64,000 nt of DNA from Azolla caroliniana. Lineage: Eukaryota > Plantae > Polypodiophyta. This document shows positions 1 to 63,183 of the stretch, piece by piece. The stretch covers positions 24,490,001 to 24,554,000 of the forward strand of contig JBHGNT010000001.1 of assembly GCA_043228905.1 (NCBI GenBank), read 5' to 3'. How positions within the stretch are numbered: position 1 is the stretch's first letter; each line of letters starts with the position of its first letter. Position numbers and translations under genes: made by a program. The notes beneath the pieces are model-generated. The model saw only the letters and a list, made by a program, of their open reading frames with translations, was not told the DNA's origin and did not search any database.

Positions 1-756
1 TGTTTCCCGAGTTATCAACAGGACGATTGGGCCGAGATTCTCCACTTTGCGGAGTTTGCATATAATAATGCTGTTCACTCCTCGACTCGAGTCTCCCCAT
101 TCTACGCTTATACCGGTTCTCATCCTCGCTGGTCGGTGATCGACACCCCGGAGCTACCTACCAATCCTCATGCCGGGGATCATTTGGAGAGACTACGCAA
201 GATCCAGACAGATCTCTCGACTCATCTTCGTCATGCTCAACCGACACAGAAGACTTACGCGGATCGTCATTGGCTTCCCTCCTCTTTTGCCATCGGAGAT
301 CGAGTATGGCTCTTACGTTGTCACATCAAGACTACTTGACCGTGCGACAAGTTGGATTATCGACGACTCGGTCCTTTCCGTATTACGGGTAAATTTAATG
401 ATGTCACATTCCGTCTTGATCTCCCTCAGCAGCTTCAGATACATCCGGTTTTCCATTGTTCTCTTCTTGAACCTTATAAAGCAAACACCATTCCCGATCG
501 TGTTACACCACCGCCGCCCCCGCTGGAGTTGGACGCCGGCCCGGAGTATGAAGTTGCTGCCATTCTCGATTCCAAACTTATTCGCAACAAACTTTATTAT
601 TTGGTCGATTGGGTTGGTTATAGTCCGAGAGAACGCACTTGGGAACCCGTCGAGCATGTTGCCAATGCTCAGGATCTGCTTGCTGATTTCCACCGAAAGT
701 ATCGGGACAAACCCGGTCCGCAATCAGTGCCGACTCGTTCCACTCGTCGTCTTTAA
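1..756 (+). pseudogene. Gypsy integrase C-terminus plus chromodomain (frameshift near 340)
   Basis: ORFs 136-339 and 352-756 carry GPY/F and chromodomain motifs. Confidence 0.9.
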
Positions 757-767
757 GGGGGAGATAG

Positions 768-1190
768 TGTCATGATATGGCAAGACTCGAACCCATGACC
801 TTATGGTATATGGGTCGAACTCTTAACCATCACACCATCTATTGTAATTCATAGGATATTATTTTCATTTATGTTTTATTATAAGAAAGTAATGTATATT
901 CCAGATTTCTCTGGAACATTCTAGAAGTTTCAGGATTACTCTTGACAACACTATAAAAGAAGGCACTAGGCATTATGTTGAACCAAATTGGTTCAACGCT
1001 AGTCTTAAGCCTCTCAGCCGCTTTGTACTTAATTTTTCACATAAAATATTAGCTGCTGTCATCATCTTTCTCTCTCTCTCCTCTTCTCACTTCCTCTCTC
1101 GGGAATCTTACGCAGTCCCGTCCTCTTAGTACTAATAGTACTTCTCTTCTTAGTACTAATTCCATCTCTACTTTAGTACTATTCCTAACA
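768..1190 (+). repeat. G1 3' LTR
   Basis: TG...CA ends, directly after PPT 755-767, TATA ctataaaag near 951. Confidence 0.8.
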
Positions 1191-4100
1191 GCTAGTATCT
1201 GTCTTGCCGGGCCCAAGTCTTTCATTGAGAAAGTTTGGTTGAGAGCCTTCTTCAGCATCCGTATTTTGGCTTGGTCCCGTCCGACGATCAACATGTCGTC
1301 CATGTACAGAAGGAGTATCAGGAAGTCGCCTCCTTCAAACTTCTTCACAAACACGCAATGATCAGTTTGCGTTTTGTGATACTCTTGGTCGGTCATGAAG
1401 GAGTCGAACTTCCGGTACCATTGTCAGGGAGCCTGCTTCAGTCCATACATGCTCTTCTTCAACCGGAAAACCAGGTGTTCCTTCCCTTTCTCCACTAATC
1501 CTTCCGGTTGCTACATGTAGATCTCCTCTTCGAGGTCACCGTGAAGGAATGCCGTCTTCACGTCTAGCTGCTCTACCTCGAGGTCCATGCTTGCCGCTAT
1601 ACTCAACACCGTTCGAATGGAAGTCATCTTTACTACCGGGGCAAATATCTCGTCGAAGTCCACGCCCTTCTTTTGCTGGAACCCCTTCACCACGATCCTG
1701 GCTTTGTATCTCGGGGGGTTGCCAGCATCTCTTGGTTTCAACTTGTACACCCACTTGTTTCGGAGTGCCCGCTTTCCTTTCGGAAACTCCACCAATTCGT
1801 ACGTATGTTTCTCATGCAGGGAATCCATCTCATCCTGCATGGCACTTAACCATTTGCGGCTATGGGTGTCACTTTTAGCTTCCTCGAAGCTTTTTGGCTC
1901 CCCCTCATCAGTTAGCAACACGTGCTCTGGATCCGGAAATCTCCGGGGGGCCCTTCTCTCTCTGAGAAGATATCTGCGTCCTTGGGCTTCGGTAACCGGC
2001 TCCTCCATTTACTCTTCATCCGAATCCGATTCGGGGTCTTGTTCGGTTTCGGTTTCACCTATTCCTTCTTCTTTGGCTGGTTTTGTCTCCTCAACATCAC
2101 TGGCCAATTCATCGAGTGCTAACCGACTTCTTGCCAGTTGGAACTGCATTTCATCAAATCGAAATTTTTCCTTACATGTCGACTCAGATGTTCATTATCT
2201 TCTTCTCGGACTCCCAGTCGGCGAGCGTCTTGTCCTCCATGAAGATAATATCTCGACTCCGGAATACTTTCTGGTCGACCGGGTCCCACACTCGGTAACC
2301 GAACTCATCGTCGCCGTAACCGAGGAATATGCATGGCCGGGTTTTCAGATCTAACTTTCCTCTTCGGTCCTTAGCTACATGCACATACGCAAGACACCCA
2401 AATACCTTTAGATGTCGGTAGGACGCTTCCTTACCGGTCCAGACTCTCTACGGCGTGTCTCCGTCCAAGGGTACTGAGGGTGATCTATTTATCACATATG
2501 TCGCCGTCGACAGTGCCTTAGCCCAAAATGTCTTGGGTAATTTTGAATGCACCAGCATACTCCGAACCCTCTCCATTATGGTCCGGTTCATCCTCTCGGC
2601 TAGCCCGTTTAGTTCTAGCGTCTTCGACACGGTAAATTCGAGCCGTATTCCCTTCGAGCGACAGTACTCCTCGAACTGCCCCCGATATTCTCCTCCGTTA
2701 TCTGCTCGAACCGCCTTCAGCTTCCGTCCGGTTTCTCTTTCCACTCTCGCTTGGAGTTTTTTGAAGACGGATAGCACCTGATCCTTCGTCTTCAACGGTG
2801 TGGCCCATAACTTCCGGCTGTGGTCGTCTATGAACATCACAAAGTACTACGAACTAGCATGTGACGTCGTGTTCACTTGACACACATTAGTATGCACCAA
2901 CTCCAGTGGTGCATTACGTCTCATCGGTGGCCTCAATCGGAAGGAGGTCCGGTTTTGTTTACCGGCCGGACAATCAGTGCACTTTTCCAAGTGCTCGTTC
3001 TTCACTGGAATGAGGTTGTCGTCTGCAAGCTTCTTCATCCCATTCTCGTTCATGTGACACAACCTCTTGTGCCACAGCTCACCGGTAGTGTCGGATGCCA
3101 CGTTCACTTCTTCCGGACATAACCGGGCATTCATCAAGTACAAAGTGTTGACTTTCCGGGCCCGAGCCACAATCAAGCTCCCTTTGCTGAACTTCATAAC
3201 ACCGTTCCGGATGCTACCCGTGTAGCCTTCATCATCTAACCGACCAACTGATATTAGGTTCAATCAAACCTCCGGAACATGTCGAACATCCTTCAGCAAC
3301 ATCTTGCATCCGGTTGATGTCGTCAACCACACATCTCCTATGCCGACAATTCGGCATGTACCTTCATTCCCCATTCGAACACGGCCGTGGTCACCGGCCG
3401 AGTAGGATGAGATGCATTTTCTATCCGGGATCAGGTGGAACGACGCTCCGGAATCGACCACCCAGGTCTTCTCGTCATTGATAAGCATTAGCTCCTCTTC
3501 GTTTGCCGCGATTGCCGTCGTTCCTTTCCAGTCTTGCCCTCGCCGATCCGAACCGTTTCGGTCCGATGACTTCTTCGATTGGTATTGTCTATTTCCTTGT
3601 GTTTCCGGAGATGCCGACAGTTCTTTTGGAAGTGCCCCGGCTTCCCGTAGTAGAAGCAAGTGGGCCTCCCTCTTGACTTTTACCGTGTCCTAGATTTTTC
3701 CCGGTTCTGGGGACTTTGGTTCCTTTTTCTTCCATGTTCCGATTCGGAAAGGAGCGTTTTTGAGTCGGGGATCAGTTCCTTGTCCTTTCGACGCGCCTCC
3801 TCGTTCAGGATGCTTGTCTTCACCGTCTGCAAAGACAAGTTCTCTTCTTGGTAGGAGGTGCTGAGAGTAACCACCAAGTTCTCCCAGCTTTCCGGCAACG
3901 TACACATCAGCATGATTGCCTACATTGCATCATCCATGGGGAACTTGATCGCTGCAAATTGATTTACATACCCCATGAATGTGCTTATGTGTTCAACCAT
4001 GCTCTCGTCGTCTCTGTATTTCAGGTTTACTATTTTCCTCATCAATGAGGTTCTGTTGAGCGCATTCTTCCTCTCGTAAAGACCTAACAGCTTCTGCCAC

Positions 4101-4899
4101 ATCTCGTGGGCATTCGTGTCGTTCGCCACGTGCTGAAGGACACTTACGTCGACACACTATCGGATAGTGGCCACGGCTTTCCTATTCAGAAGCTTCCAAT
4201 CCGACTCCAATACCCCCTTTGGTATTTCCTATCTGTCGATTGGCTCGTATAGGTCTTTTACAATGAGAAGGTCTTCCATCTTAATCTTCCAGTTTGCATA
4301 GTTCTGTGAATTTAGAACCATCATACCTGGGAAGCCGCTCCCGCCTCCTTCCATTTTCTGTGTTACCTGCTCTGATACCGGTTTGTAGTTCAAAAACGTT
4401 GTCGGCCACAACTGGTTTTGCATGTGCGGAATAATAGTCAATCTAATGGAAAGGAAAAACAGAATACAGAAACTGAGAATGACACAGATTTTGACGTGGA
4501 AACCCGAACTGGGAAAAACCATGTGGAGTCCACAAACTTTGAAACAGAACACTATGAGAGAAAGGAATACAATCAGAGATCTCAGAGGCAACGTCCTCGA
4601 GATCCTGCTTCGCCAACAAGCGGCTATGGAGCTCACACGCTTCCACTCACACTCATTCACTGTCACAGTTACGGAGGCAACAACCTCGTCAACAATAACT
4701 TTTCAATAATGCACTTATCTAAAATGATCGCCCTAAGTACTTATATACTAATGTAACGTTTTGACTATTTACAAGTTTAGCCTTCCGTGTTGGCTATCTC
4801 CACGATTTCCGGTTTTGGCCTTGGCCGATAAGCCTCGGCCGAGCTGCTCATCAAAACGGTTCTTCTCACTTCCCATCTTGAGGGACCTGTTTCCTAACA
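1191..4899 (-). mobile_element. A1: Tnt1/Tork-like Copia (gag-PR-INT-RT, degenerate); 3' part lies left of the window
   Basis: gag (NYANWKIKMEDLL), PR WVVDSGAS, INT (ADNGGEY, NGLAERMNRT), RT (QLDVKTAFLHGDL, LLYMDDML); mutated iMet PBS 4369-4380; LTR 4384-4899. Confidence 0.92.
4384..4899 (-). repeat. A1 5' LTR
   Basis: tgtagtt...ttcctaaca beside the PBS; has the family motif gtggaaaacc...aaaaaccac/tg. Confidence 0.8.
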
Positions 4900-4990
4900 T
4901 CGATAGCATGTCAGCCATGGCGTTCTTCTTTCTTGCAATGTGGGCGATACACCTTAGCAAGCTAGATCTGGTGTCGCACACCCTAAGATC

Positions 4991-5517
4991 TTTGTGGAAT
5001 AGTGCTCAACCACAATTGAGACTCAAACACTTTATGAAAGAACAAAACAGAAATGGAGGTTTGTACAATTACACAGAAGAGACGACATAAGATGTTTATG
5101 TGGAAAACCCTAGTAGGGGAAAAAACCACGGGAGCCCACAGACTCCAACTATCACTATAGGAGAAAAGAGTACAACGGGAGACTCAAAGGCAACGACCTC
5201 GAGCTCTGCATTTTCGCCAACCGGCAATTACAATAGAAACTGGTTCAACTTCTCTTCTCTCTCTCTCTCTCTCTCTCTCAGTCTATTTCTCTCTCAGTAC
5301 AACAATGACACAACTAACAACAACATATTGAAGTGATTTCCCTACAAATATAGCCTTTACAGGCACACCATAAATATATTTGCAGATATGTCCCTGGATC
5401 CGGTTCACACCGGATTCATTCGGATACCTTCCGGTCTGGTCCGATTGCTGCATTCGGTCCGGTTCCTTCCTTTGGCTCGTCTGATCCGGCTCCTCAGGAG
5501 GGACTGAATTCCCAGCA
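4991..5517 (-). repeat. A2 3' LTR
   Basis: Direct repeat of 9166-9671. Confidence 0.88.
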
Positions 5518-8500
5518 AACTCCGTGTGGATCTTCGTTAGCGCGAAGTCTTGATCTTCTACCTTCTCTCGGAGCCAATGATATCTTCTCTGGATGTGCTT
5601 GGTTCGGGAATGGTAGACCGCATTCTTAGCAAGGTGGATGGCACTTTGGCTGTCGTAGTAGAGCCGGTATTCCTCTTGTTGGATCCCTAGCTCTCCGATG
5701 AAGTCCTTCATCCAGATTACTTCCTTTCCGGCTTCCACAACTGCCATGTACTCCGTTTCCGTTGTTGACAATGCAACGAACTTCTATAGCTTCGATTGTC
5801 ACGATACGGATCCCCCTGCATATGTCATGACGTATCCGGATGTGGAATGGTTGGTATCCGCATCAGCCGACATATCCGAATCCGTAAAGCCTTCAAGTTG
5901 GGGTTTACCTGAGCTGAACCGGAGGCACATACTTGAGGTGCCTTTCAAGTACTGGAGTATCCACTTGACCGCGTTCAAGTGTTCTCTTCCTGGATTGCTC
6001 ATGAACCGGCTGACCACTCCGACTGCGTATCCGATATCTGGTCGGGTGCACACCATCGCATACATCAAGCTTCCGACGATAGAGGCATATGGTATCTTCA
6101 TCATATCCGACTTCTTTGCCTTTGTCTTCGGGTTCTGCTATCCGGACAACTTGCAGTTTGCCGGAACTGTTGACCCAACCGGCATCGCATCCGACATGTT
6201 GAACCGTTTAAGCACATTTGTCACGTACTTCTCCTGTGACAGCCATATCAATTTCATCGACCGGTCCCGGATTATGTGCATCCCCAGTATCCGTCTCGCC
6301 GGACCCAAATCTTTCATTGAGAAGGTCCGGTTCAAAGCCTTCTTTAGATTTCCAATTTTGGTTCGGTCCGGTCTGACGATCAACATGTCATCTACATACA
6401 GTAGGAGTATCAGGAAGTCACCTCCATCAAATTTCTTCACAAACACGCAGTGGTCAGCTTGCGTCTTGTGGTACCCTTGGTCGAAATCCACTCCTTTCTT
6501 CTGTTAAAAACCCTTCACCACGATCCGGGCCTTGTACCTCGGTGGATTTCCGACGTCTCCCGATTTCAGCTTGTACACCCACTTGTTCCGGAGTGCCCTC
6601 TTTCCTTTCGGCAACTCCGTCAGTTCATATGTGGGGTTCTAATGCAGGGAATCCATCTCGTCCTCCATGGCACTCAACCACATGCAGCTGTGGGTGTCTT
6701 TCTTTGCTTCTTCGAAGCTTTCCGGCTCCCCCTCCTCGGTCAGCAATACGTGCTCTGCATCCGGAAATCTCTGGGGGGCTCTTCTCTCTCTGAGAGGGTA
6801 TCTCCGTCCTTGGTCTTCAACTACTGGTTCCTCCGTTTGTTCTTCATCTGAATCTGATTTGGGGTCTTGACCAGTTCTGGTGTCCAAAACTTTATCTTTG
6901 GTAGGTCCAGATTCTTGTCCGACTCTGACAGGTTCTTTGAGTGTCGTCCGGCTTCCGGCTGGATGAGTCCTCACGTCTTTCGACCGATCTCTATCGGTCA
7001 ATCCGGAGTCCGCTATCTTCTTCTCCGACTCCCAGTCGGAAATAGTCTTGTGTTCCATGAAGACTATGTCTCGACTCCGGAACACCTTCTTGTCGACCAA
7101 GTCCCACACTTGGTATCCGAACTCATTATCGTTGTATCCAATGAATATGCATGGCCGAGACTTCGGATCCAACTTTGCTCTCTTATCCTTTGCAACATGC
7201 ACATAAGCGAGACAACCGAATACCTTTAGATGCCGGTAAGACACGTCTTTACCGGTCCATACTCTCTGTGGCATGTCTCCTTCCAAGGGTGTCGAGGGTG
7301 ATCTGTTAATCACGTACGTCGCCGTCATCAGCGCGTCAACCCAAAACATCTTGGATAACTTTGCATGTGCTAGCATGCTTCAAACTCTCTCCACTATGGT
7401 TCGGTTCATCCGTTTAGCTAGCCTGTTCAATTTCGGGGTCTTCGACACGGTGAATTCAAGACGGATTCCCTTCGACTTGCAGTACTCCTCGAACTACCCC
7501 TGATATTCGCCTCTGTTATCTACTTGAACTGCCTTTAGCTTCCGGCTGGTTTCCCTTTCCACTCTTGTTTGGAGCTCCTTGAAGACGGACAATACCTGAT
7601 CCTTCGTCTTCAATGGTGAGACCCATAACTTCCGGCTGTAGTCGTCTATAAACGGCACGAAGTACTGCAATCCGGCATGTGACTTCGTGTCCACTTGACA
7701 CACATTGGTATGCACCAACTCTATTGTTGCATTCCGTCTCATAGGTGTTCTTGACCAGAAGCAGGTTCGGTTTTGCTTACCGGCCAAGCAATCAGTGCAC
7801 TTCTCATGATGCATGTCTGTCATCTCCGAAATGAGGTTATCTTCGGCAAGTCTTCTCATCCCCTTCTGGCTCATATGACACGGTCTCTTGTGCCACAACT
7901 CACTGACATTGTTGGATGGTACGTTCACTTCTTCCCAACATATCCCGGCGTGCATCAGGTACAATGTGTTGATCTTCTAGGCTTGAGACACGATCAGGCT
8001 TCCTTTGCTGAATTTCATGACTCTGTTTCGGATGCTACCCGTGTAGCCTTCATCATCTAGCCGACCGACTGATATTAGGTTCAACCGAACCTTTGGAACG
8101 TGTCAGACATCCTTCAGTAGCAACTTGCACCCGGTTGATGTCGTCAACCACACATCTCCTATGCCGACAATTCGGCATGACCCTTCATTCCCCATCCGGA
8201 CACAGCTAAGATCTCTAGCTTTGTAGGACGAGAAGCATTTCCGGTCCAATGTCAGGTGGAATGATGCTCCGGAATTGACAACCCACGTTGTCTCATCGCT
8301 GACAAGGTTTAATTCATTCTCCTCGGTGATGAGTAGTAGTTCTTCTTCACTTGTTGCGATCGCCGACGTTCCTTTCCGATCCGGACCTCTCCGATCCAAA
8401 CCATTTTGGTCCAAACTCTTCTTTGAATCGGTGGTGTCGGCCCCTTTCCCTTTCCGAAAATGCCAACAGTTCTTCTAGAAGTGCCTCGGCTTCCCACAGT

Positions 8501-12437: not shown

Positions 12438-13600
12438 TGTTGCGGAATTCCGCGCTTGCATGTCGGATCCGGGCGGGACCACCAGGGTCATGAACCAAAA
12501 GGGGAGGAGTTGCCAAGGACCTGAATCCTTCGGGGCTTGCCGCGTTGCCGGCTGGTTCGATACCGGATACTCTCCGGACGCGATCGGTAACTGCACGGGA
12601 AGCGAGAGAGCGTGCCCTTGTCCTTGCCGCCCCTTTCGCCCGTATGTACAAGTGGCCCAAAAGAGTCACGAGACACGGCCCGGTTAACCGCGTCCGCGCA
12701 CACGCACACACACATATACACACCCGGTTACAACCGGCACCTCTACAACGGCGATCACACACGCACCCGCTCTCAAACCCTACGCTAACTGGAGACACAC
12801 ACACACCTACACACACAATGCTTGCTGCGATGCCAGTTCCACACGGAGAGGAAGAGGGAGCCTGCATCCTAGGGCCGGTCGAGGAGCTCTCGGGCTCGTC
12901 CACGCAATGGGACCCTCGTGCAGGGCACGCCTCTTCTAGAACGACCGCCCCCTGTGCCAAGACGCCTTCAAGGAGCGCACGGGCTCGCTGAATCGAGTGG
13001 GGTCTTGTGCGCCAAGGAGGGAGACCTGCCAACGAACCACCTAGAGCGCGGGCTCTGCATAGGATAGGAGCCAGGAACTACACACACACTCGTAGACATG
13101 CCGGACAGTGAAGTGCTGAGAGCCAATGAGCAGGAACTCGGGGAAACCACAGATAGTCCGCACGCCGCCTTCCACAACCGAACACACCGCCTACGCACTC
13201 ACACAGAAGACACCGAAACCCTAATAGAGAATAGAGACAACACACACACCAAGATGAAGAGAAGACAAAAAAGATGTTATACTTCGAAGTTATTAACACC
13301 AAAAAAAATGGAACGTATGGAACCTCAAAATGAGGAACAAAACTGTTTGGGACGCAATGGGTGGGAACCCTAGTACAAGACGCACACCCTCCCTTTTATA
13401 GAACAAGGTGAGGGTCACATGATTATGTTGGATATATCCTGACTTACCTGGGATTCTCTATCCCAAATTAACTCCTATTCGGCGCCATAAAGGCACCCCT
13501 ATTGTTCACACATTTTTACAAGGGTGAGTGCACATGCTCCACCCCGCCGATTCTTCTGACATTACCCGGTTTCTCACCATGGCCGGGAATCTTCACGACA
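12438..13600 (-). repeat. B1 3' LTR
   Basis: tgttgcggaattcc...cttcacgaca; matches 16450-17362 and the reverse complement of 46664-47826. Confidence 0.9.
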
Positions 13601-16449: not shown

Positions 16450-17362
16450 TGTCGCAGAATTCCGCACTTGCATGTCGGATCCGGTCAGGACTTGACCCTG
16501 TTAACCGCGCCTGCACACACGCACACACATATACACACCCGGTTACAACCGACACCTCTACACCGGCGACCACACACACACCCGCTCTCGGACCCTACGC
16601 CAAGCGGAGACATACACACACCTAGACACGCAATGCTTGCTGCGATGCTAGTTCCACATGGAGAGGAAGAGGGAGCTTGCAGCCTAGGGCCGGTCGGGGA
16701 GCTCTCGGGCTCGTCCGCGCACCGGGACCCTCGTGCAGGGCACACCTATTCCAGAACGACCGCCTCCTGTGCCAAGACGCCTTCAGGGAGCGCACGGGCT
16801 CACTGAACCACTTAGCGCGCGGGCTCTGCATAAGCGGTAGGAGCCAACACCTACACACACACTCGCAGACATGCCGAACAACGGAGTGCTGAGAGCCAAT
16901 GAGCAGGAAGTCGGGGAAAGCACAGATAGTCCGCACGCCGCCTTCCACAACCGAACACACCACCTACACACGGACACAGAAGACACCGAAACCCTAACAG
17001 AGAATAGAGACAACACACACACCAAGATGAAGAGAAGACAGAAAAGACATTATGCTCCGAAGTTATTAACACCAAAAAAAATGGAACCTATGGAACCTCA
17101 AAATGAGAAACAAAACTATTTGGGACCCAACGGGTGGGAACCCTTGTACAAGAAGCGCACCCTCCCTTTTATAGAACAAGGTTAGGGTCATGTGATTATG
17201 TGGGATAAATCCCGACTTACATGGGATTCTCTATCCCAAATTGACGCCATAAAGGCACCTGTATTGTTCACACGTTTTTACAAGGGTGAGTGCACATGCT
17301 CCACCCCGCTGATTCTTCCGACACTCCCCGGTTTCTCACCATGGCCCGGAATCTTCACGACA
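16450..17362 (-). repeat. B1 5' LTR (shorter, with internal deletions)
   Basis: Direct repeat of 12438-13600, next to the PBS. Confidence 0.9.
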
Positions 17363-18183
17363 GCGAGACCACCTCGAACTTCTTCGTCATCTCTTCAATG
17401 ATGTCATCATCAATATTCTTTTCTTCCGAGTTGCTTTGTTTGGGCAGCTCAACCACTTTTGGTTGTCTCATTTTCTCCCCGCTCAATCCTGCCAAGTTAG
17501 TGTCATCAACCCATTGACGATGCTTGTCTAGCTTGTTGCACGCTGGCTTCACCGCAAGCCAGTTTGCCACAAGCCCGGTCACTTGGGTGCCACCTTCGAG
17601 GAGAGTTCTCAGTTCTCGTCTATCCTTCATATCCATAACTTTTAGGAAGTACAAAGTCTTGTAATCCTTAAGTAGCACTTGGTCCGTTGCGGGGAGACGA
17701 CTAAACATCTGGTCGAACTCGTCGTACACACTCGAGGCGCTCATCTTCTTATTCTTCTTCTCCATCCACATCAGCAATACATGTAGAGTCATCCTCGACA
17801 AATCTTCCATCATGAACTCCGCTAATATTGCTTTCTCGAACTCGGTCCATGTTGTCTTCCCTTCTTGAAGCTTAATGACCCGTCTTTGGATGTTGTTGGT
17901 GACAATTCTCTTGAAATTTGAGATTTGACGTGCTTCAGACACATCCCTCGGATTCATCTCTGTTTTGTATGCATCAAGGAACTTTGTAATGATCCTTCCA
18001 TCAAATTGACCCTCGATCTCCACGACACGTTGACGGCCTTCTCCACGCTCGCATCGTTGTCCCGAGATCTCATCATTTGTTCGACGATTACCATCATCCT
18101 TTCGAACTCTCCCGCTTGATTGCTTGAGGATGCCATCTCCAAGTATCGGTTGATCTTCGTCTTGATCCTTCCTAGCGCTTCTT

Positions 18184-18199
18184 CACATCGGGTTCACCA
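18184..18199 (-). promoter_or_regulatory. Primer binding site, tRNA-Trp (P1)
   Basis: Minus strand tggtgaacccgatgtg is complementary to the plant tRNA-Trp 3' end (...cacgtcgggttcacca), one mismatch. Confidence 0.85.
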
Positions 18200-18206
18200 A
18201 GAAAGA

Positions 18207-19016
18207 TGTCGAGGAAATCCTCGCGTTTTCGTGAAATGAAGCGAAACCACCGGGGTCCTGGACCGGAAAGATTCGAAGTTTGTACTAGCTTTAGCGAGAA
18301 GTATTTAAGATAGAGAGAGAGAGAGATTGAGAGACATAGATTCCAGTTATAAGACAGATTGAAAGAGAAGATACCAGTTATGAGATAGATTGAGAGAGAA
18401 GATATATCACCAATAAGATAGTTAGATTTTTTTTATTAGAAGTTTTCTCATTCGATACATATCTTCCTTGATTCTTTTTTCTCTACTCTTTTATAGATGC
18501 CCCCAAGAATATGATGCATGTCAAGGTGCAAGACATGCGATGCGACGCATGTTTGCCACTTGGCGCTCATGCATTACATGTGATGCATGATGTCCATGTC
18601 TCTCATCAAAGCACCATGTATGAGAATTTACATGTGAAGAATATAATGGAAAATACAATTTTTAAAGAAATGACTTGGCTTAGTGGTAAGTCAATTGTGT
18701 TATGCAAGATTGTCCCTCCTTGTGGGGGTGTCAGCCGGAAAGTCGAAACGAGAGTCGATTGGCCGAAATTGACCAAAACAAGTTGAAATGGGATTTGGTT
18801 GAATGAAAGTCTGCCGAATACACACATACATATATATACATAGTCATATATATATGTGAGATAAGTTGGTATATATATAGAGAGAGTCATATTAGTTGCA
18901 TATATATGTGGGATAACTCACTGAGGAAAAATAGTAAGAGAAGCACAAAAGTGAACCCTTCTCGATTTTCTCCTTTCCACGTGATTTTCACACCATTGCT
19001 GAAAAACTTCATGACA
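18207..19016 (-). repeat. P1 5' LTR
   Basis: tgtcgagg...cttcatgaca; same terminus as the B and P2 LTRs; G2 integrase resumes at 19017. Confidence 0.75.
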
Positions 19017-22200: not shown

Positions 22201-24010
22201 TCGTTAGAGCACGGATTGGAGTCGGGGGCTGGTACCAGGACGTGGACTCGTCAAACACAACGTCGCGGCTAACATGCGCTTGTTTGGTGCGAGGGTTATA
22301 ACACTTATAACCCTTCTGCTCATCCGAGTAACCAAGCAAGATGCATTTCTCGGCCTTTGCGTCCAACTTCCTCCTTTTCTCCTTCGGTACATGCACATAC
22401 GCAATGCTACCGAACACCCTCAAGTGTCGCAAGTTCGGCTTCATTCCGAAATATAGCTCGTGCGCTGACACTTTGTCTCCGATTCGGTTCTGGGTGTATT
22501 CCGCGGTCCTTACCGCCTCGGCCCAGTAGAACTTGGGCAAGCTCTTCTCCTCCAGCATTGCCCGTGCCGCTTCCACAACTTACCGATTCATCCTCTCGGC
22601 CACGCCGTTCTGCTTCGGCGTGTATCTACAACTGAATTCGCGCCGAATTCCCATTTGTTGTAGATAACCATTGAATTGACCGGAAAAGTACTCTTTCCCG
22701 CCATCCGACCGCAGGCACTTGATCTTTCGTCCTGTTTCCGTTTCCACGAACCCTTTGAGGTCCCGGAAACAGTCGAAGACTTTGCTCTTCCTCTCAATGA
22801 GGTAGACCCACGTGTGCCGCGTGTGGTCGTTGATGAAGGAGACGAAATATCGGCTCCCGCCAAGACTAACGTTTTGTGCCAGCCCCCATACATCGGAGTG
22901 TATAAGGTCGAGCTTGTTCCGGCTCCGGTTTCGCTCGTTGGGGAAAGGAAGTCGGTGTTGCTTCCCGAGCTGGTAGGCTTCACAAATTTGTGCCTTTCGG
23001 CCACTAAATTTGGGCAATCCGAACACTACCTGTTTCGATTGTAGATCTTGAAGCCGTTGGTAGTTGATGTGGCCTATCCGCTTGTGCCACAAGTCGATGT
23101 CCGACTCGGATTTTTGTCCCTTCGCGAACATTGCAGTGCCACCGTCAGTGGAGTCGAGGATGAACTTCCTCCCATCTCTGCGCCCTTGCGCAATCACATG
23201 GCCTTCTTCCTCAATGAAGCACCCGAGGTGTGTAAACCGAACCTCCATCCCTTGGTCGACGATCTGTCCGACCGAGACCAAGTTCTTCGTGATTGTCGGA
23301 ACGTGCAACACGTTCATGAGTTTCCCTTTCTGCCCGACATGGCTTAGGGGAACTTCTCCGACATTCGTGATTGGATGCGGAGTGTCGTCTCCAGTTGCGA
23401 CTACTCCAGGTTATAGGAACAAGACGCGTAGTTGGTTCTGTTGAGCTTCTCTGTTGGAAGCAAGCTCGCCATGCCTCTATCCATCGTTCTTCTTGTTCTT
23501 CTTCGTCAAGCTGTGTGGACTGCAGAGAGGTTCTCAACCCTCGCACTCTGATACCATGTAAAAAGTAGCGTGCGGAAGCAAGTATGAAGACCGAACAGAA
23601 GGCAGAAAACTCAGGTTTAATGGAGAGCTTGAGCTTACGTAGTATACGCGGGAGAGACAGAGAGAGTGAGAGAGAGAGAACACAAGAACTATATTCAACA
23701 AAAGTACTCAATCTCTATTCACCACACTATACATATGTGTGTTCAATGAACACTTTTATACAAGTCCTAGAAGGACTGATAGAAGTATTGACAGTACTTC
23801 AATGCTCATTAAGATCTCCTACACTAACTCCCAAATATATTTATCACGGAATATCTTTCCTAACAGCCTCCCGGTTACGCACCGATCCGGCCCTACCTAC
23901 GCACCGGTCTGCGTACCGGTTTACGCATTCGGCCTAACCGATCGGTCCCAACCGATCCGGTCGTTGGCTTCTTCAGTCAATCCGGCCGATGTTGAGCTTG
24001 TCTCTCAACA
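19240..24010 (-). mobile_element. C1: Copia with gag/PR deletion; TSD ATGGG
   Basis: LTRs 19240-19682 and 23557-24010; ATGGG on both sides; iMet PBS 23545-23556; PPT 19683-19694; INT 22121-23317; RT-RH 20403-21614. Confidence 0.96.
20403..21614 (-). pseudogene. C1 RT-RNase H (403-aa open segment)
   Basis: QMDVKNVFL, LYGLKQAPRAW, LLYVDDL, YTDADWAG, SSTEAEY. Confidence 0.92.
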
Positions 24011-24405
24011 ATGGGCAAGTGCGCTAAGTTAGCCCCACAATATTGTGGACCATTTGAAATCCTTAAGCGAGTTGGGTCATCTGCTTATCACCTTGCCTTA
24101 CCCCGTAACGTTGGTATTCATCATGGTTTTCACGTCAGTCACCTAAAACCATTTTTAGGCTCTAGTGAATACCATCACAATCCAAGATATTGTAACATTA
24201 GAGGATTTTTCTTACAAATATCATGTTCTTGAACTAATACTTGATTCTCGTACTAAACGTTTACGTTCTAAAGAGATTCGGCTATTCAAGATCAAATGGA
24301 TGGATAAACCTATTGTTGATGCCACATGGGAACGCAAGAATACTCTTAAGGCACAATTTCCTCACTTTATATTGAAAGAGTGCAATCTTTTGAAGTAGGG
24401 GAGTA

Positions 24406-26658: not shown

Positions 26659-28913
26659 CCTTTTCGCACACCCTTTTTAGCATGCATGTACCTAAGCCAA
26701 CCCACGCTTTTAGCACACCCTTTTTAGCTAAACCAACCCAAATGGATACTTTTATATCGACTATAAATTGAGCACAAAGTAAGAAGCTAAGTAGGTTGGT
26801 TTTGATCTCTTATGTGCATATCACAATATACTCGAGAAATATCTCTAGAATATACTCATCTAGAATATACCATAGAATATTTCTAGAATATACTAAAGAG
26901 TAGAATATTCTGAATGATATGCTAGACTATACAATTTTAAACCATATATAACTTACATGTAACTTAAGGGTTTTCAAATGGTTTATCTAATACTAAGTAT
27001 TGGGTGTGTTATAGGTTAGAGGTTCGAGCCTAGATGTGACATTATCCCCCTTCTTACGCCACCTTCCCAAACCGGTACCAGAGATGAAAATCCTGGACCA
27101 CCTCCGGGGCATTTTGTAAATTCGTCCCTAGTTCCCACATGGCGTCAGAAAGGGGGTAACCCTTACACAAGACGAGGTATTGCAGGTGTCAATGGTGCAA
27201 ACGTGAGTCAAGTATTTGGTCGATCTCATATTCCTCCCCTATCGTCAACTGCACATGTGGTGGTGGGGGGGGCCTAGCATCTTGGGAGTTGCGAAGCATA
27301 ATGGGGTTCGAGGAGGGAGACATGAAAAACATCATAAATCTGGAAGTGGGATGGAAGGGCCAGCCGGAAGGTGACGAGATTGATGTGCTCAACTATACGG
27401 AATGGTCCCAACTTCTTGTAATCAAGTTTTGCACATGGACGGGTAGTAGAGATCTGCCGTCGTAACAACCAGACCATGTCGCCGACGACAAAGGGTGGAG
27501 TGGCAGAGCGATGGCGATCACGTGCTTCTTGTATCGTTCGCTAGCAAGACGAAGCTCTAAAGATAAGTCATGATGTAGCTCTTCTAAAATGCAGGCTCCA
27601 CCCTCTACAGAAGGGTTCACTAAAGTGGTAGGGAGGGAAATTTTGAACAATGGATGTAAACCATAGTTTTCAAAGAAGGGAGTGACGCCAGTCGATGGAT
27701 GGAGAGAATTATTGTGGGCGAATTCAACTAGTGAAAGTAAGCTGACCCAATCAACTTGTTGGTAACTAATCGAGCACCGAAGATATTGCTGAAGGATTTG
27801 GTTGACGTACTCCGTCTGACCGTCAGTTTGGGGGTGATAGGCGGAGGACAACTTGATGGAGATACCTAAAGTGTGTCGCAGGCACTGCCAGAGGTGAGAG
27901 ACAAACTGGGGTCAATGGTCGGAGATGACATCATCAGGGAGTCCATGCAAACAAACCACATTGTTGAGGAGTAGATGTGCCATTCCTTCACCGGAAATGG
28001 TTTCTCAGCATGGAGTGAAGTGAGCCATCTTTGTAAACCGATCAACACTGACCAACACCAAGTCATAGATATTGACCAAGTGTAGATCGGTGATTAGGTC
28101 CATAGAGATAAAGGCCCAGGGATGACAAGGGCATGGAAGCAACTGGAGTAAGCTGTATGGCCGATGATGAGCAACTTTGGAGCGAGCACAAACCTCACAA
28201 GTCTTGATGTATTCTTTGAAAAACTTCCATGGTTTTGGTCACCGGTACCCTCGAGAGATTAGTTCGAGGGTTTTGGCAACCCCGAAATGACCTGCAAGGG
28301 GGTCATCGTGGCATTCTTGCAACACCCGGGTGCGACACGGGCCCTCCGGGACGTATAAGAGATGATCTCGGAATAGCAAACCATCTTGTATGGTGAAACA
28401 GTCAAGGTCCATCTAGTTGGGTGTTGTGGGGGGGTGTTGCATCGATTGTGGATGCATTAGTGATCTGTTGGAGTAATGAATCATCCTGCAACATACTAGT
28501 GGCAAAAAGATGCAATTGGTTGGGTTTCAACAAACAACGAGATTGTTGAGCATGTGCGACATCCCTGGGGCGGATTGCAAGTTTGGCTTGACGAGAAAGG
28601 GCATCAGCCTTCGCATGTTGGCCACCAAGTCGAAATATGATCTCAAAATCATAGTCAACGAGAAATGTATATCTCAAGTGTGAATTTGCGGGAGTAGTAG
28701 GCCACTGGGTGCATTATGTTGGTGTCGTTGGCTTGGGATAAGATGGCGCGAATTGCGAAGTTAGAGGCATCGGTTTCGACTTGGAAGGGTCTTGTGGGGT
28801 CGGCATGTAGAAGCACGGGGGCAAAATGATGAATTCGTGTTTGAGAGAGTCGAACACATTTTGTGCCACCGAGGTCCATAAAAAGGGATTACGTTTGTGG
28901 GAGAGGGCGATAA

Positions 28914-28936
28914 TGTCACAAACGTCGAGGCTAAAT

Positions 28937-29021
<85 letters not shown>

Positions 29022-29322
29022 GTAGCCAAGAGAGCAAGAAAGAGAGAGAGGGTGAGAACTAAATTATGCTTCCGTAACTGGTGTTGTTCACCTTGTTTGT
29101 AATAAAGGTGCACCCAAGTATTTATACAAGAATGTGGAGATATGCATGTAAACTAGGAAACATCTAGAGAGTGCATGGAAACTTCTAGAGAGTGCATGAA
29201 GATGCATTCTCTAGAAGTTTCTTGAAAGTTCTAGTGATTAACCTACGATGTAATAAGTTGAATATTATACAAGACAATAATGCATAGATGGATGTAGTTC
29301 AACTGGTATGGTTGCCCAATAA
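28914..29322 (-). repeat. Truncated LTR of a related Gypsy, sitting where the G3 RT should be
   Basis: Starts tgtcaca, then (AG)n, antisense TATA (tatttatac) and ctaga-rich U3 repeats like the G1/G3 LTRs; fuses directly to the PR C-terminus. Confidence 0.6.
28940..29018. repeat. (AG)n microsatellite, about 39 units
   Basis: Perfect dinucleotide run. Confidence 0.98.
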
Positions 29323-30670
29323 GGAGAGCCCTAAAACAATCAGAAGTCGAGGGGTTGCAATGAGCTAGAATGTTAATACCTCCTGGTGGAACCTGACTTG
29401 AAGTACCAATGGGACAGTGGCTTCGGTAACCGCCCCCAAAGAGAGAACCCATCCGTTGATAGCTTGAACGGATATGGGTTGTGTTGTGCGGATGGTGGGA
29501 ATTTTATATGCTTGGACGAACGCGATATTGATGAAATAAGTAGATGCACCAGAATCGAGCAAGGCATGGGATTGTATTGATGTAGAACCAAAACAAAGAC
29601 TTACTTGCAAAGTAAAACCTCCTGCTAGCATGGCTGAACTGTAGGAGCACAGAGAAGTAGGGTAACGGAAAGTGTCCAAAGGCATGGCTCCTAATGCAGC
29701 CAGACTTGGTCGTTTTCTTGTTATCGAGAAACCTTCGCAAGACGTGCATGGTGGGATTGATGATGAGGGCCGCGCACTGGGAAATGGCGGATGACATGGC
29801 CAGAGGTACCACAATAGAGGCAGAGGTCATTGTCACGTCGATGTTGTCGTTGGGCATCGGTAAATGGTTGGAACCGAGCATGGTCGATCATCATTGGGAA
29901 ATGGGGGTTGACCTCCATCGAGGTATGAGTATCATTGGAGGATGGCAACTATGGCGTGCTTGGAGAAACCAATATATATGGCCTTGTGAGTGGAGCATTG
30001 TGGGAGGAAGACGGGAAGCTTCGAGTCCCTCGCTCCTCCTGTCAAAGCTCAAAAAGACTATTATCACATTGAATGGCTTAGGAGATTACTTGAGACAATG
30101 ATGTGAGCTCCAGAAAGTTTAAGAGAAGAGTCTTGACATTGTTTCGGAGCCTTCGAGGAAACTGGTGGCATAAGGCTTGGTCATCCGAGCTGACATCGCA
30201 TGCGATCTGATGAAACTCTGAAGCATAGATCGAAGCTGGATGAGTGCCTTGTTGTAAGGAATAGAGCTTCATGAGTGCCGTTCGTCACCAGTCTATTTCT
30301 CCGAATGTGGCTTCAAGCTCCGCAAGGAAGGCAGGAAAGTTGTCTAAGAGTAGGGATGAGGTCTTGATCAATGGTGCAAACCATGCTTGTGTCGGCCCAG
30401 AGAGAAGGGTGCCAACGAGGCCAACCCGAGAGAAATTTCTAGCATAACTTCGCGGTTTTAAGCGGATGATAAGCCGAATTTGATTGATGAAACCACGAAG
30501 ATGTGCCTTTGAGCCATTGAATTTGTCAGGTAGGGTAACGCTAGGTTCGAGGACATATGAATGGGAAGAGGAAGGGGTTGGGCTAGGTGTTGAGGGAGGG
30601 TGAGGCTCGACGAGTGAGGGGCTATTGGATGTGCCATTTTGAAGCTCTCGCAATGATTGACAAAGGCTTT

Positions 30671-41307: not shown

Positions 41308-44027
41308 GTCACATGTCATAAGTATGGTGATAAAAACATAACTATAGAAGATAACTTATCCTAATGGTATATGCTTCGTCCTTGGTGTGTGAGGTTATGG
41401 GTTCAAGTCTCTCAAATGTTACTTAATGAAATATTGAAGTTTATTTTTATATCGTGAAGCAAATCCTTCACGACACCCACCCCCTCTGAACTTGCACATT
41501 GGATGTGCAGAGTTCATCCAATATCTTGAAAAAACTCTTCATTCCCTTTCCAAATTGGATGTTCCCTAAAGCACTCTTTGTTTCTTTCATGGTTAGGCCT
41601 CATGGTTAAGAACTGTACTGTCTTCCTTCCATCCTGACTCTTGATCCTCGTGAAACCCAAGCTATCATCAATCACGTTTGTTTCCATCTTTACTACATTG
41701 ATGTATGGTTGACGAAGGATGGCAGGGTAGGTTGATCTATCCTGCACAAAGAAATTTTGAACCACCGACACATCTCCCATTGTTACTTTCACACTGGGAC
41801 ATGCTCCGAACATATCCTCCGTAGTCTCCGTGGCAACTCTTATTTTCCACCCATGATTCTTGTCGATTAGCCACCATCCTTGAGCATAAAATTCCGATGA
41901 AATCATGTAACTAATCTCTGATCCATGATCGATCAAAGCAATACATGGAATTTGTTGCTTCCTAATTTTTGTAGGTGCCTCTATTGTTGCTCGAGCCCAA
42001 TGGTCCCTTGTATAATGACTTCTATCCCCTTCATGAATCCCAACATCATTTATCTTCTTTAAACTTGCACCATTAATTGTGCCACGATCCAAATCTTGGA
42101 GTGTTGTTGCACACCCTCCCGTAACTTCTTCCATCAAATGTTTTATATTTGTCACAACTTCTGTGTCTGAAGCAAGCTTGAAAGTTGGGCTTGTCTTCCC
42201 TTTTACTTTATTCGTTTCTTTTGACTCAGGAGCATCCTTTTCCATCTCTCTTCTCTCTTGTTCTTGTGTCTCATGCATTTTAGCTAGATTAGCCTCCTCA
42301 TCCCTCTTTTGCTTCTCTTCCACTAGTACATCTTATGCATTCACTTAGGTGAATGCTGATAGTGTGTTTACCGGATCATTCCATCCAGTGAAGTTTCATA
42401 TTTCATCACCCACGCTTTTTAATTCGTCCATTCGAACCTTCCCTTTTCTTTCATACTCCATCACATCTTGCCAAAAGCTAGATCCACCATATGAGTCTTC
42501 TACTCGTAACCCTAAGGTTGTCACAAATTGTATTGATTGAATTGTTTTTATCTCAGCATCTTTCATTAGCTTTTTTATTCCACCTTGCCCGAAGTTGAGT
42601 AGGAGTGGTTCTCGTGTCTCGGTTGAGTGAATCTTACCATCTTGATAGTATATTTTATCATGATTAAGAACATCCCTATGTTCTTGATAATCTTTCTTTT
42701 GGTGGTCGACACTATCACACCACATACACCTTCGGACAATGCCACCTCCTTGCCTTGACAAAGTTGAGCTTTGTCCCAATTCCAACTTCGTCACTTTAAT
42801 CGACAAGTCTTTCTTGCCTTTCACCAATTCGTGCAAGAGTGACTCTTCTATTTTCTTCTCTCTCGAGTCATTCCCTGTTTCGTCTCCCTTCCTCTCCGAC
42901 AGCTCCATAAACCTTAACTTTCTTTTATAGAAATGGGCGCAAGCCCTTTTCACCTCCCCCTAGTCTTCTATAAGTCCACCCAGACTATTTGGATCTTCTA
43001 GAAGCATTCCCAAGTCCTTGTCTTTAATATTAGTAGCTTGTAGAAACAATATTACTTTATCTAGCATTATTATATTTCTATCTCTAACATTTAATTGTTC
43101 AAATCTTTTTGAAAATTCTTTTAACACTTCCAAAACACTTAAATATTTATCAGACTCTACCCAATCCATGAAAGCTTGCCTTATCATCCTTGACATATCG
43201 TTGAGGTTGTATTCATTCAGTAATGCTCTTTCGAACGTTGCCCATGTATGATGCTCCCTCTATAGCTCCTACCTTTCTTGTAGCCCAATCGTAGCGACTC
43301 GACGAAAGCTATTAATTTTTGCGGCTTCATCGATGCCTTGTTTAAGCATTTCCTCATTGTAAATCTTTAGAAATCTTGTTAAATTCATACCTTCGAAGAT
43401 TCCTACTCGTGTGAGAATATTGTCGACGACTTTGTCGATGCTTGCCATCATTCCTTGCTCCCGCATCATTCGTTCCATCCTTGTACACATAAGCCTCATT
43501 TGCTCCTCCATTTTTCCTTCACGCTGCCTTCACGTCGGGTTCACCAAATGTGTCGGGGTAGTTGTGGTTCATGTGGCGAAGTCGCATGGACTAATGTTAA
43601 AAGGAGTTGGCTATATATTTTATAAGGCTTATGCAACAATGTTAGAAAGATTATGGATAGGAAGAACCAAAGTTAGAAGTAATGTGTGAGAGACAGATGA
43701 GCATAGATAAGAGATAAGAGACAATGTATGATTTAAAAGTTAATTCCTTGCCTCTCTTTATAGGTTCTCTCATGCATATGATGATATGGGGGTTGCATGG
43801 TATACATGTAATGCATGTGATGCATGATAGCCATCATGCTCATCTAAGCTCTAATGTATGAAGATACACATGTCATAAGTATGGTGATAAAAACTTAATC
43901 ATATAAAATAATTTATCCTAATGGTATATGCTTCGTCTTTGGTGTGTGAGGTTATGGGTTCTCTCAAATGTTACTTCATACAATATTGAAGTTTATTTTT
44001 ATATTGTGAAGCAAATCATTCACGAAA
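41308..44027 (-). mobile_element. P2: TR-GAG-like element (gag + CCHC + protease only) of the Trp-primed Gypsy group
   Basis: Perfect Trp PBS cacgtcgggttcacca 43531-43546; 5' LTR 43551-44027; left-truncated 3' LTR 41308-41475; PPT 41476-41487; PR ALIDHGSE; ORF stops about 25 nt before the PPT. Confidence 0.88.
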
Positions 44028-62717: not shown

Positions 62718-63183
62718 TGTTACATGCATAGGGCAAGATTCGAACCCTGTACCTCCATGTTAACGATTTTTAAGCCTTACCAATATACTAGCATATTATG
62801 AATTTTAAAGTTATACTAAACTTTATCCCATGTAAATATTCTAGATATGCATGGTACAAAAAGTTATTCATGCATACACACTCAAGTTAAAAGAAAAGAT
62901 TGGATAGAAAGCTAATCATGCACATGCAGTGTGCATGAAAACTAAAGTTAGGAAAAGCATGATGCTTGCATGTGATAAACTTAGACTCTTACAACACTAT
63001 ATAAGGAAGAGAGAAAGATGTATAGGGGTTGTTGATTTTTTATAAGGATTGATTAATACAAAATATTCGTGGGATTCATGATTTTACCATCTAATTTTCT
63101 CTTACAATCTAAGTATCCATTAATACATTATTCTCGTGGGATTCACGTGTTTCACATTTCCATCTTGCAATCTATTCGTAACA
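62718..63183 (+). repeat. Gypsy-type LTR with an antisense tRNA-like head
   Basis: tgttac...gtaaca terminal inverted repeat; TATA near 62997; A/B boxes on minus 62737-62790. Confidence 0.7.

What the first reader, a model, noticed from the sequence alone, without database searches (positions are those of the whole stretch)
768..845. tRNA-like Pol III module, antisense, at the U3 end of a protein-coding chromovirus LTR (recurs in several families)
Seen: the minus strand reads atggtgtgatggttaagagttcgacccatataccataaggtcatgggttcgagtcttgccatatca. It has an A-box-like TGGTGTGATGG (826-837), an aggtc variable loop and a B box GGTTCGAGTC (784-793) at tRNA spacing, ending about 15 nt from the LTR's TG terminus. 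Full or partial modules in the same polarity occur in LTRs near 62737, 27021, 29295, 41400/43955 and 18676. Known: small-RNA-derived LTR segments are described in non-autonomous TRIMs (5S in Cassandra, tRNA-like in Helenus). Inference: here they sit in LTRs of protein-coding Gypsy elements from two distant lineages. They may be TFIIIC-binding barriers that shield the LTR promoter in heterochromatin, or antisense Pol III promoters.
Basis: partly seen in the sequence, partly recalled or inferred. Interest (0 to 1): 0.8.

Follow-up and report, generated by a model that had tools for sequence, protein, structure and literature searches.

The report
Conserved backwards tRNA promoter in LTRs
A whole branch of protein-coding plant jumping genes carries, back to front at the outer edge of its terminal repeats, the two promoter boxes of a tRNA gene, kept at tRNA spacing while the DNA between and around them has diverged, so these elements likely recruit the host's RNA polymerase III factor TFIIIC, which would shield their own promoter from silencing.

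Summary
Confirmed and extended. The module lies antisense, 15 nt inside the 3' LTR (768-1190) of a Tcn1-like chromovirus. It is not a tRNA gene (no ARAGORN or Rfam tRNA hit). Of 77 relatives chosen by protein alone, 58 carry it; 23 of 29 plant-type LTR families have it complete. Across those 23, fixed A- and B-box positions keep 0.84 and 0.89 pairwise identity at 43-44 nt spacing. The anticodon arm (0.39), flanks (0.33-0.38) and four-fold sites (0.40) are saturated, and the cloverleaf is lost. That is purifying selection on promoter letters, not on an RNA fold. The elements self-prime, so it is no site for a primer tRNA. A non-chromovirus Gypsy LTR and an unassigned LTR in the window carry it too; 11 Copia LTR starts do not. 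Likely role: a TFIIIC/Pol III site acting as a portable chromatin boundary (inferred, untested). Rivals: tRNA-annealing site, antisense Pol III RNA, integration landing pad. Closest known: Helenus TRIMs; this is not one. The scan noted similar LTR modules in probable fungal genomes. New variant of a known kind; interest 0.7.

The parts
340..753 (+). C-terminal integrase region of a Tcn1-like chromovirus: SH3_Tf2-1 and Chromo domains; this copy has a stop at 337-339
   Evidence: Pfam PF24626 E 8e-14, PF00385 E 1e-12; relatives 88-93% identical with RT, RNase H, integrase
755..767 (+). Polypurine tract
   Evidence: Sequence; same tract before TG in relatives
768..1190 (+). 3' LTR (TG...CA), followed by Copia sequence from 1194
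   Evidence: LTR ends of L012, L013, L022
773..844 (-). tRNA-derived module (tRNA positions 1-72 by register), antisense; stems not kept
827..837 (-). A box (positions 8-19); this copy has G at the usually fixed A14
   Evidence: many copies in four runs have A14
797..801 (-). Variable-loop motif AGGTC (positions 44-48), conserved across families (0.78)
783..793 (-). B box (positions 52-62)
952..958 (+). TATA box of the LTR's Pol II promoter (inferred)
   Evidence: Sequence; same position before the self-primer in relatives
985..996 (+). Predicted self-primer at the start of R, complementary to the sequence after the 5' LTR in relatives
   Evidence: Identical 12-mer in L022 pairs with its PBS; compensated variants in other families
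41348..41412 (+). Full module, antisense, in the 3' LTR of a gag-protease-only non-chromovirus Gypsy element (41310-44025, minus strand)
   Evidence: R1 E 2.7e-8; 2 mismatches, spacing 43
43903..43961 (+). Same module in the 5' LTR of that element, B box damaged by a short deletion
   Evidence: R1 E 2e-6
62733..62797 (-). Full module, antisense, at the start of an LTR of unassigned lineage (starts 62718)
   Evidence: R1 E 5e-6; 2 mismatches, spacing 44
27011..27041 (+). B box at the start of the 3' LTR of a second, decayed Tcn1-like element (minus strand)
   Evidence: R1 E 0.011
18665..18692 (+). A-box-only remnant in the LTR of a non-chromovirus element; not significant alone
   Evidence: R1 E 0.33
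29295..29306 (+). A-box-like 12-mer at the broken start of an LTR; not significant alone
   Evidence: no R1 hit

Best explanation
The module is a tRNA-derived A box and B box, kept at tRNA spacing and back to front at the outer edge of U3 across a whole clade of Tcn1-like chromoviruses, and it likely binds host TFIIIC as DNA, which would set up a nucleosome-poor boundary between flanking heterochromatin and the LTR's own Pol II promoter. Shown: position, polarity, clade-wide presence, conservation of box letters and spacing, loss of the cloverleaf, self-priming signature. Inferred: TFIIIC binding (from the match to type-2 promoter positions); TFIIIB and Pol III loading on the AT-rich U3 side, with any transcript running out of the element; the boundary role (by analogy to yeast tDNA barriers, and because type I chromodomains are thought to aim at H3K9-methylated chromatin). 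Inferred origin: a tRNA or tRNA-type SINE copied into U3 once in the clade's ancestor; plus-strand copying of a tRNA that mis-primed near the purine tract would give this place and polarity.
For: Relatives were picked by protein only. 20 of 29 plant-type LTR families beat all 40 dinucleotide shuffles for an antisense A+B pair, all 20 at 43-44 nt although 40-50 was allowed; sense strand scored 5-8 mismatches in 33 of 33. Anchored on the B box alone, 19 of 22 have the A-box GG-type motif at offset -34/-35 and 0 at -41 to -36 or -33 to -32. In 23 families: T8 21, R9 23, Y11 22, A14 20, R15 22, G18 21, G19 22, G53 23, T54 22, T55 23, C56 22, R57 23, A58 22, C61 18; fixed A-box 0.84 and B-box 0.89 pairwise identity against 0.39 (anticodon arm), 0.33-0.38 (flanks) and 0.40 at four-fold sites. 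Stems are not kept: anticodon 36% and acceptor 42% paired, RNAalifold predicts 0 pairs, T33 in 9 and R37 in 7 of 23. A profile of the modules ranks 11 of 14 annotated E. coli tRNA genes among its top 13 hits in 50 kb, on their sense strand. Changes that G:U pairing would tolerate are absent at promoter-fixed positions: G>A 1 of 92, T>C 2 of 92, against A at positions 51 and 57 in 16 of 46. Contigs with open gag and 1,200-aa pol frames carry it (L012, L018, L027, L029, L046). tDNA barriers need A box, TFIIIC and Pol III in fission yeast (PMC2040200, passages).
Against: No binding, chromatin or transcript data. 6 of 29 plant-type families lack a complete module (L052, L058, L059, L063, L072, L073). 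The A box has T at position 10 in 13 of 23, where tRNA genes mostly have G (recalled). The window copy and most X1/X4 depth carry G14, and T8 varies in about 40% of depth in X12 and X13. The fission yeast barrier is orientation-independent, so a barrier alone does not explain why every copy is antisense. Spacing is stricter than TFIIIC is thought to need (recalled), T35 is kept in 20 of 23, and purine/pyrimidine class is kept at 22-24 and 49-51, outside the classical boxes. A second module sits inside the pol frame of one subfamily, where an LTR boundary is not needed. Families are related, and most loci come from one series of assemblies, so counts are not independent events.
Confidence: 0.45

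Rival explanations
1. The genomic RNA's U3 carries the complement of a tRNA's D arm and variable loop/T arm and anneals to a host tRNA, as the U3 part of Ty3's bipartite primer site does, to help dimerisation, packaging or strand transfer.
For: Same place and polarity as in Ty3 (PMC5371799, passages). Explains the fixed antisense polarity and a second copy inside pol. Positions 44-63 and 13-24 vary mostly by transitions.
Against: The clade self-primes: 18 of 20 LTR-end junctions found with a GTTTGA pattern have a 10-12-nt exact complement just after the TATA box, with compensated variants (agrees with PMC6317226, passages), so no primer tRNA is needed. T54 in 22 of 23 does not fit initiator tRNA (recalled A54). 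Wobble-tolerated changes are missing at fixed G/T positions. Positions 10, 12 and 59 vary three or four ways inside the would-be helices.
Confidence: 0.2
2. The product matters: Pol III makes an outward antisense RNA over the U3 start and purine tract that tunes the element's silencing or copy number, or its passage clears nucleosomes.
For: Both boxes are kept, not the B box alone, which fits full initiation; polarity is fixed; U3 upstream is AT-rich.
Against: No fixed terminator: a run of four T follows the B box at 0-46 nt in 14 of 23, at 120 nt in 1, and is absent within 160 nt in 8. The transcribed sequence has no kept fold.
Confidence: 0.15
3. TFIIIC on the LTR end acts in integration: it tethers the cDNA, or makes LTRs landing pads for elements that aim at Pol III sites.
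For: The B box lies 15-62 nt from the integrase attachment end in all 23. An unchecked scan note reports such landing pads in a fungal chromovirus LTR.
Against: No pile-up of insertions upstream of the A box was seen in the window or the LTRs printed; no genome was held for a proper count. The distance to the terminus is not fixed.
Confidence: 0.1
4. A neutral relic of an old SINE or tRNA insertion.
For: Not a recognisable tRNA; decayed or missing in 6 of 29 families and in several window copies.
Against: Box positions stay at 0.84-0.89 identity while four-fold sites, the anticodon arm and flanks are at 0.33-0.40; spacing varies by one base while the distance to the LTR end varies from 15 to 62.
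Confidence: 0.05

Closest known systems
Helenus / TRIMp3 (Kojima 2024, PMC10886601; parts 1-4 and 6 of 6 and searched passages read, supplements not opened)
   Same: tRNA-derived sequence in LTRs with conservation centred on boxes A and B and no working tRNA; includes one plant family (Selaginella).
   Different: Helenus elements are non-coding, 311-1263 bp, and the promoter is proposed to transcribe the element itself (the text read does not state orientation). Here the carriers have gag and pol frames and a TATA-type promoter, and the boxes point out of the element. The paper expects autonomous partners to use Pol II and not to share long LTR stretches with TRIMp3. It also says that 'not a few LTRs' in Repbase resemble part of a tRNA but analysed only the TRIMs, so such LTRs may be in Repbase unremarked.
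Cassandra (5S-derived Pol III promoter in a plant TRIM; as described in PMC10886601)
   Same: Pol III internal promoter captured in plant LTRs and kept for long times.
   Different: Type-1 (5S) promoter, makes the element's RNA, has a conserved terminator; here type-2, antisense, no fixed terminator.
Tcn1 clade of chromoviruses (PMC2864245 and PMC6317226, searched passages)
   Same: Type I chromodomain, about 420-440 bp LTRs, no tRNA primer site, self-priming, close gag-pol layout.
   Different: The passages found for 'tRNA', 'PBS' and 'LTRs' mention TATA and CAAT boxes but no tRNA-like segment in U3.
Ty3 bipartite primer-binding site (PMC5371799, passages)
   Same: Sequence complementary to tRNA T and D arms in U3 of a Gypsy element.
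   Different: Ty3 pairs with one primer tRNA that also binds a 5' site; here there is no tRNA primer, the whole tRNA length is kept as a spacer and free promoter positions vary.
tDNA / B-box chromatin barriers of yeasts (PMC2040200, passages; further references listed in PMC13578239)
   Same: A and B boxes as the working part, tRNA product dispensable.
   Different: Host loci, shown by ChIP and mutation; here a mobile element would carry the site, and nothing is shown experimentally.

Membership tests
Tcn1-like chromovirus (carrier element) | Integrase C-terminal chromodomain | tested here: met
   PF00385 E 1e-12
Tcn1-like chromovirus (carrier element) | Self-priming instead of a tRNA PBS | tested here: met
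   18 of 20 pattern-found junctions in relatives, compensated variants; the window lacks this element's 5' end
Tcn1-like chromovirus (carrier element) | RT phylogeny with reference Tcn1 elements | not tested
   No reference set held; the tree has no named references
Functional tRNA gene | Cloverleaf stems and covariance-model score | tested here: not met
Type-2 Pol III internal promoter | A box and B box at tRNA spacing, conserved | tested here: met
Type-2 Pol III internal promoter | Downstream oligo-T terminator | tested here: inconclusive
   T4 within 46 nt in 14 of 23, position not fixed; none within 160 nt for the window copy
Type-2 Pol III internal promoter | TFIIIC binding and Pol III transcription | not testable with these tools
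   Needs ChIP, footprinting or raw small-RNA reads
Helenus / TRIMp3 | tRNA-derived sequence in the LTR with conserved boxes | tested here: met
Helenus / TRIMp3 | Short non-coding element (under about 1.3 kb) | tested here: not met
   Carriers have gag (about 390-435 codons) and pol (about 1,200 codons) frames
Helenus / TRIMp3 | Pol III promoter placed to transcribe the element; tRNA-type PBS | tested here: not met
   Module antisense at the U3 start; self-primer instead of tRNA PBS
Ty3-type U3 primer-binding segment | A tRNA primer site after the 5' LTR matched by the U3 segment | tested here: not met
   for the Tcn1-like clade; the element at 41310-44025 does have a TGG-type PBS, and its match to the module was not tested against a real plant tRNA

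The most novel reading that the evidence does not exclude
Autonomous chromoviruses of non-seed plants, and probably some fungi, carry their own TFIIIC/Pol III insulator: an antisense tRNA-type promoter fixed at the outer U3 edge that lets a heterochromatin-targeting retrotransposon keep its Pol II promoter open after insertion. The module has spread to other Gypsy lineages and been captured again inside pol, which would scatter very many mobile TFIIIC sites through these genomes.
Probability: 0.35. Interest if true: 0.85.

Novelty: new variant of a known kind. Interest (0 to 1): 0.7.

Why it matters
How elements that aim at heterochromatin stay transcribable is an open question. A conserved, 70-nt, two-box cis element at a fixed place gives a direct test: ChIP and two point mutations in a transformable moss or liverwort. 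If TFIIIC binds, a very abundant repeat family would be a main source of TFIIIC sites in these genomes, with effects on chromatin boundaries and on neighbouring genes. It also extends captured Pol III promoters in LTRs from miniature non-coding elements to protein-coding ones, in the orientation that cannot make the element's RNA.

Tried and rejected
No whole genome was held, so no genome-wide counts, nested-insertion map or host tRNA set. ARAGORN and Rfam tRNA: no match for the window module, the 41400 site, the L020 linker module or the L088 module. Cloverleaf conservation rejected: 49.7% of cells paired against 47.3% in shuffles and 49.6% when slid by one column; covariation 0.248 against 0.212 (11 of 500 shuffles), which relatedness can give. 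The register was wrong for several rows and was replaced. Pairing of the RNA's 5' self-primer with the U3 B-box complement rejected: the L025/L027 family changed the self-primer and its PBS together while the U3 box stayed. Sequencing runs: no RNA holder listed; both read-laying runs were contigs, so no start, strand or level. Viral contigs gave only distant, module-free relatives (L001-L011), nothing for the non-chromovirus protein, and 4 chance hits to a PPT + B-box pattern, two of them tRNA-like arrays. Prokaryote genome contigs: nothing. The tree does not show one origin: the label needs 8 changes, 40 of 500 shuffles as low, because losses and broken copies are scattered. L082 beat its shuffles at spacing 49 but had no R1 hit and was treated as chance. 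Literature searches found no description of an antisense tRNA-type promoter in LTRs of coding Gypsy elements; subscription journals, Repbase entries and supplements were not seen.

Full report
Setting. The window is plant DNA packed with nested LTR retrotransposons: Copia elements (RVT_2, gag_pre-integrs), chromoviruses (SH3_Tf2-1 + Chromo at 340-753, 23996-24395 and 27277-27540) and non-chromovirus Gypsy elements whose named relatives come from Physcomitrium, Riccia and Adiantum. A non-seed plant host is likely (inference). No whole genome was held. The finding lies at the start of a 423-bp 3' LTR (768-1190) that follows the chromodomain frame and a purine tract. The family is abundant: 2,920-5,207 contigs of each of four runs, from four organism codes, lie on 600-1200.

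Observation. The quoted string is exact. It is no tRNA gene: ARAGORN finds none and Rfam gives no tRNA match over the window or over 755-865. It is still more than chance. A recalled textbook consensus (A box TRGYNNARNGG, B box GGTTCRANTCC, 42-46 nt apart) has only three matches with at most 2 mismatches on both strands of the window, at 793, 41400 and 62746, all antisense near LTR starts. The 11 Copia LTR starts and three other LTR starts (24406, 59643, 62182) score 5-8.

Relatives chosen without regard to the module. An alignment of 37 C-terminal integrase fragments drew 333 relatives from metagenome contigs, of which the best 80 gave 77 loci, 53-90% identical to the query. An LTR start was found in 70 and at least 120 nt of LTR in 65. 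With the window copy these fall into 33 clusters at 80% identity: 29 plant-type and 4 that the tree places on a branch of their own. 20 of the 29 beat all 40 dinucleotide shuffles for an antisense A+B pair, every one at 43 or 44 nt although 40-50 was allowed; three more (L017, L066, L067) have the pair at 44 with weaker scores; six lack a complete module. The sense strand scored 5-8 mismatches in all 33 and the next 130 nt of U3 scored 4-8 where present. Anchoring on the B box alone puts the A-box GG-type motif at offset -34 or -35 in 19 of 22 (two of the other three were mis-anchored). A sequence-only profile of 23 modules (R1) hits 58 of the 77 loci at E<0.001, 22 of them training members, and 0 of 11 distant chromovirus-like loci from viral contigs. 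Contigs with open gag and about 1,200-codon pol frames carry the module (L012, L018, L027, L029, L046), so the carriers are of the autonomous type. These are high-coverage contigs and may blend several copies.

What is conserved. In tRNA numbering over 23 families: T8 21, R9 23, Y11 22, A14 20, R15 22, T16 21, G18 21, G19 22, T20 20; A44 20, G45 19, G46 22, T47 23, Y48 23; G53 23, T54 22, T55 23, C56 22, R57 23, A58 22, Y60 23, C61 18. Mean pairwise identity is 0.84 at fixed A-box positions, 0.89 at fixed B-box positions and 0.78 in the variable loop, against 0.39 in the anticodon arm, 0.33 and 0.36 in the acceptor strands and 0.38 upstream. Four-fold sites of the same elements are at 0.40 (253 pairs), so neutral positions are saturated. 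The distance from the B box to the LTR end runs from 15 to 62 nt while box spacing varies by one base. The fold is gone: 36% of anticodon-stem and 42% of acceptor-stem cells pair, the whole structure is no better than when slid by one column, RNAalifold predicts no pair, and anticodon-loop invariants are lost (T33 9, R37 7 of 23). Yet the profile recognises real tRNA genes: in 50 kb of E. coli DNA its 7 best hits (E about 2e-5) are metT, metU and five lys genes, and 11 of the 14 annotated tRNA genes are among the top 13. Within the window's family, variants above 8% of depth occur at 6 of the 23 inter-box positions and 9 of the 25 positions beyond the A box. Among the 10 fixed box positions they occur at three: A14 (towards the consensus), C56 (8-11%, at a CpG) and T8 (about 40% in two of four runs). 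That test is weak but agrees.

The second lineage. R1 finds, held out, 41348-41412 (E 3e-8), 43903-43961 (2e-6), 62733-62797 (5e-6) and, weakly, 27011-27041 (0.011) and 18665-18692 (0.33); the next hit is at 0.74. The first two are the LTRs of an element on the minus strand with gag and protease only and a TGG-type primer site. Its longest named relative has RT, RNase H and integrase but no chromodomain (P0244), and the RT of a related window element is 25-39% identical to the chromovirus RTs over short stretches. So the module occurs in two distant Gypsy lineages. Its A box is the same TATCCTAATGG as in L032 and it scores higher on R1 than real tRNAs, so transfer of U3 between lineages is as plausible as separate capture.

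Mechanism. Three readings need a reason for conservation. (a) DNA-level recognition by TFIIIC: the kept letters are the A- and B-box positions (role as described in PMC13578239, passages), and the free positions vary. (b) Annealing of the genomic RNA to a tRNA, as in Ty3, whose U3 pairs with the T and D arms of the primer (PMC5371799, passages). Against (b), the clade self-primes: at 18 of 20 LTR-end junctions found with a GTTTGA pattern there is a 10-12-nt exact complement about 30 nt after the TATA box, in several compensated variants, as predicted for Tcn1 (PMC6317226, passages). Changes that G:U pairs would tolerate are nearly absent at fixed positions (G>A 1 of 92, T>C 2 of 92) but common at 51 and 57 (16 of 46; rows are related and partly chosen by their boxes). 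(c) An antisense Pol III RNA as product: no fixed terminator and no fold. I commit to (a) with a boundary role. TFIIIC at the outer U3 edge would load TFIIIB on the AT-rich side facing the TATA box, 115 nt away in the window copy. Fission yeast tDNA barriers need the A box, TFIIIC and Pol III (PMC2040200, passages), and type I chromodomains are described as binding methylated H3K9 (PMC6317226). The fixed antisense polarity needs a further reason: how the piece was captured, or selection against Pol III running into the Pol II promoter or against a tRNA-like sense RNA being cut. These last steps are inference.

Comparison with what is known. Helenus TRIMs have tRNA-derived LTR segments conserved at the boxes, but are short and non-coding, and their promoter is proposed to make the element's RNA (PMC10886601, parts 1-4 and 6 read). 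This element fails two defining features and is not a member. Kojima notes that other Repbase LTRs resemble parts of tRNAs but did not study them. Ten literature searches found no account of the present arrangement; subscription papers, Repbase entries and supplements were not seen. The scan's unchecked notes report tRNA-type boxes in chromovirus LTRs of a probable gut fungus and a backwards, decaying tRNA half in a probable fungal LTR; no look-alike of this sequence was on file. L088, outside the plant clade in the tree, has an antisense module too (E 3e-4), which hints at a wider range.

Verdict. Observation confirmed. Purifying selection on an antisense tRNA-type promoter across a clade of coding chromoviruses is well supported (about 0.9 that the conservation is functional, about 0.7 that it acts through TFIIIC/Pol III on DNA). 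The boundary role is the best guess (0.45). New variant of a known kind; interest 0.7.

Noticed in passing
L020 2946-3014; L027 about 1000-1090 and 6323-6395; L028-L031: One subfamily has a second antisense A+B module inside the open pol frame, in the protease-RT linker (36-43 aa against 16-34 in the other families matched). The B box encodes a kept R-T-Q in an otherwise variable linker; spacing is 42-43, so it may be a separate capture.
   Followed up: partly
L088 4847-4913: A chromovirus outside the plant clade has an antisense A+B module about 180 nt after its chromodomain match (R1 E 3e-4).
   Followed up: partly
window 41310-44025 (minus): Gag-protease-only Gypsy element (no RT or integrase before the purine tract), with a TGG-type primer site shared with the element at 17300-18780; many relatives are 660-770-aa proteins with DUF4100.
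   Followed up: partly
module position 35 (window 810): T is kept in 20 of 23 families in the middle of an otherwise saturated anticodon arm; unexplained.
   Followed up: no
window 985-996 and relatives: Clear compensated self-priming signature (12-nt complement between R start and the sequence after the 5' LTR) in several variants, direct comparative support for Tf1-type priming in plant Tcn1-like elements.
   Followed up: yes
window 790-814; L013, L054 and kin: In the window's sub-lineage the inter-box region forms an alternative 6-8-bp inverted repeat (CCCATG...CATGGG type) not seen in other families.
   Followed up: no
window 28914-29310 (minus): An LTR with a broken start sits in place of the RT region of the decayed chromovirus at 27041-30640, and is followed by a sequence that reads like an inverted purine tract.
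   Followed up: no
window 33695-34116, 34359-34934, 35437-36143, 39940-40273: Tandem arrays (about 84/169, 81 and 65-66 nt units) around a Copia element with near-identical LTRs (36144-36572 and 39513-39941, 99.3%), probably inside a DNA-transposon-like element.
   Followed up: no
window 12438-13600, 16496-17365, 46664-47826: Three copies of an approximately 1.1-kb repeat, two flanking 3 kb of GC-rich, pyrimidine-skewed DNA with no Pfam hit; possibly a large non-autonomous LTR element.
   Followed up: no
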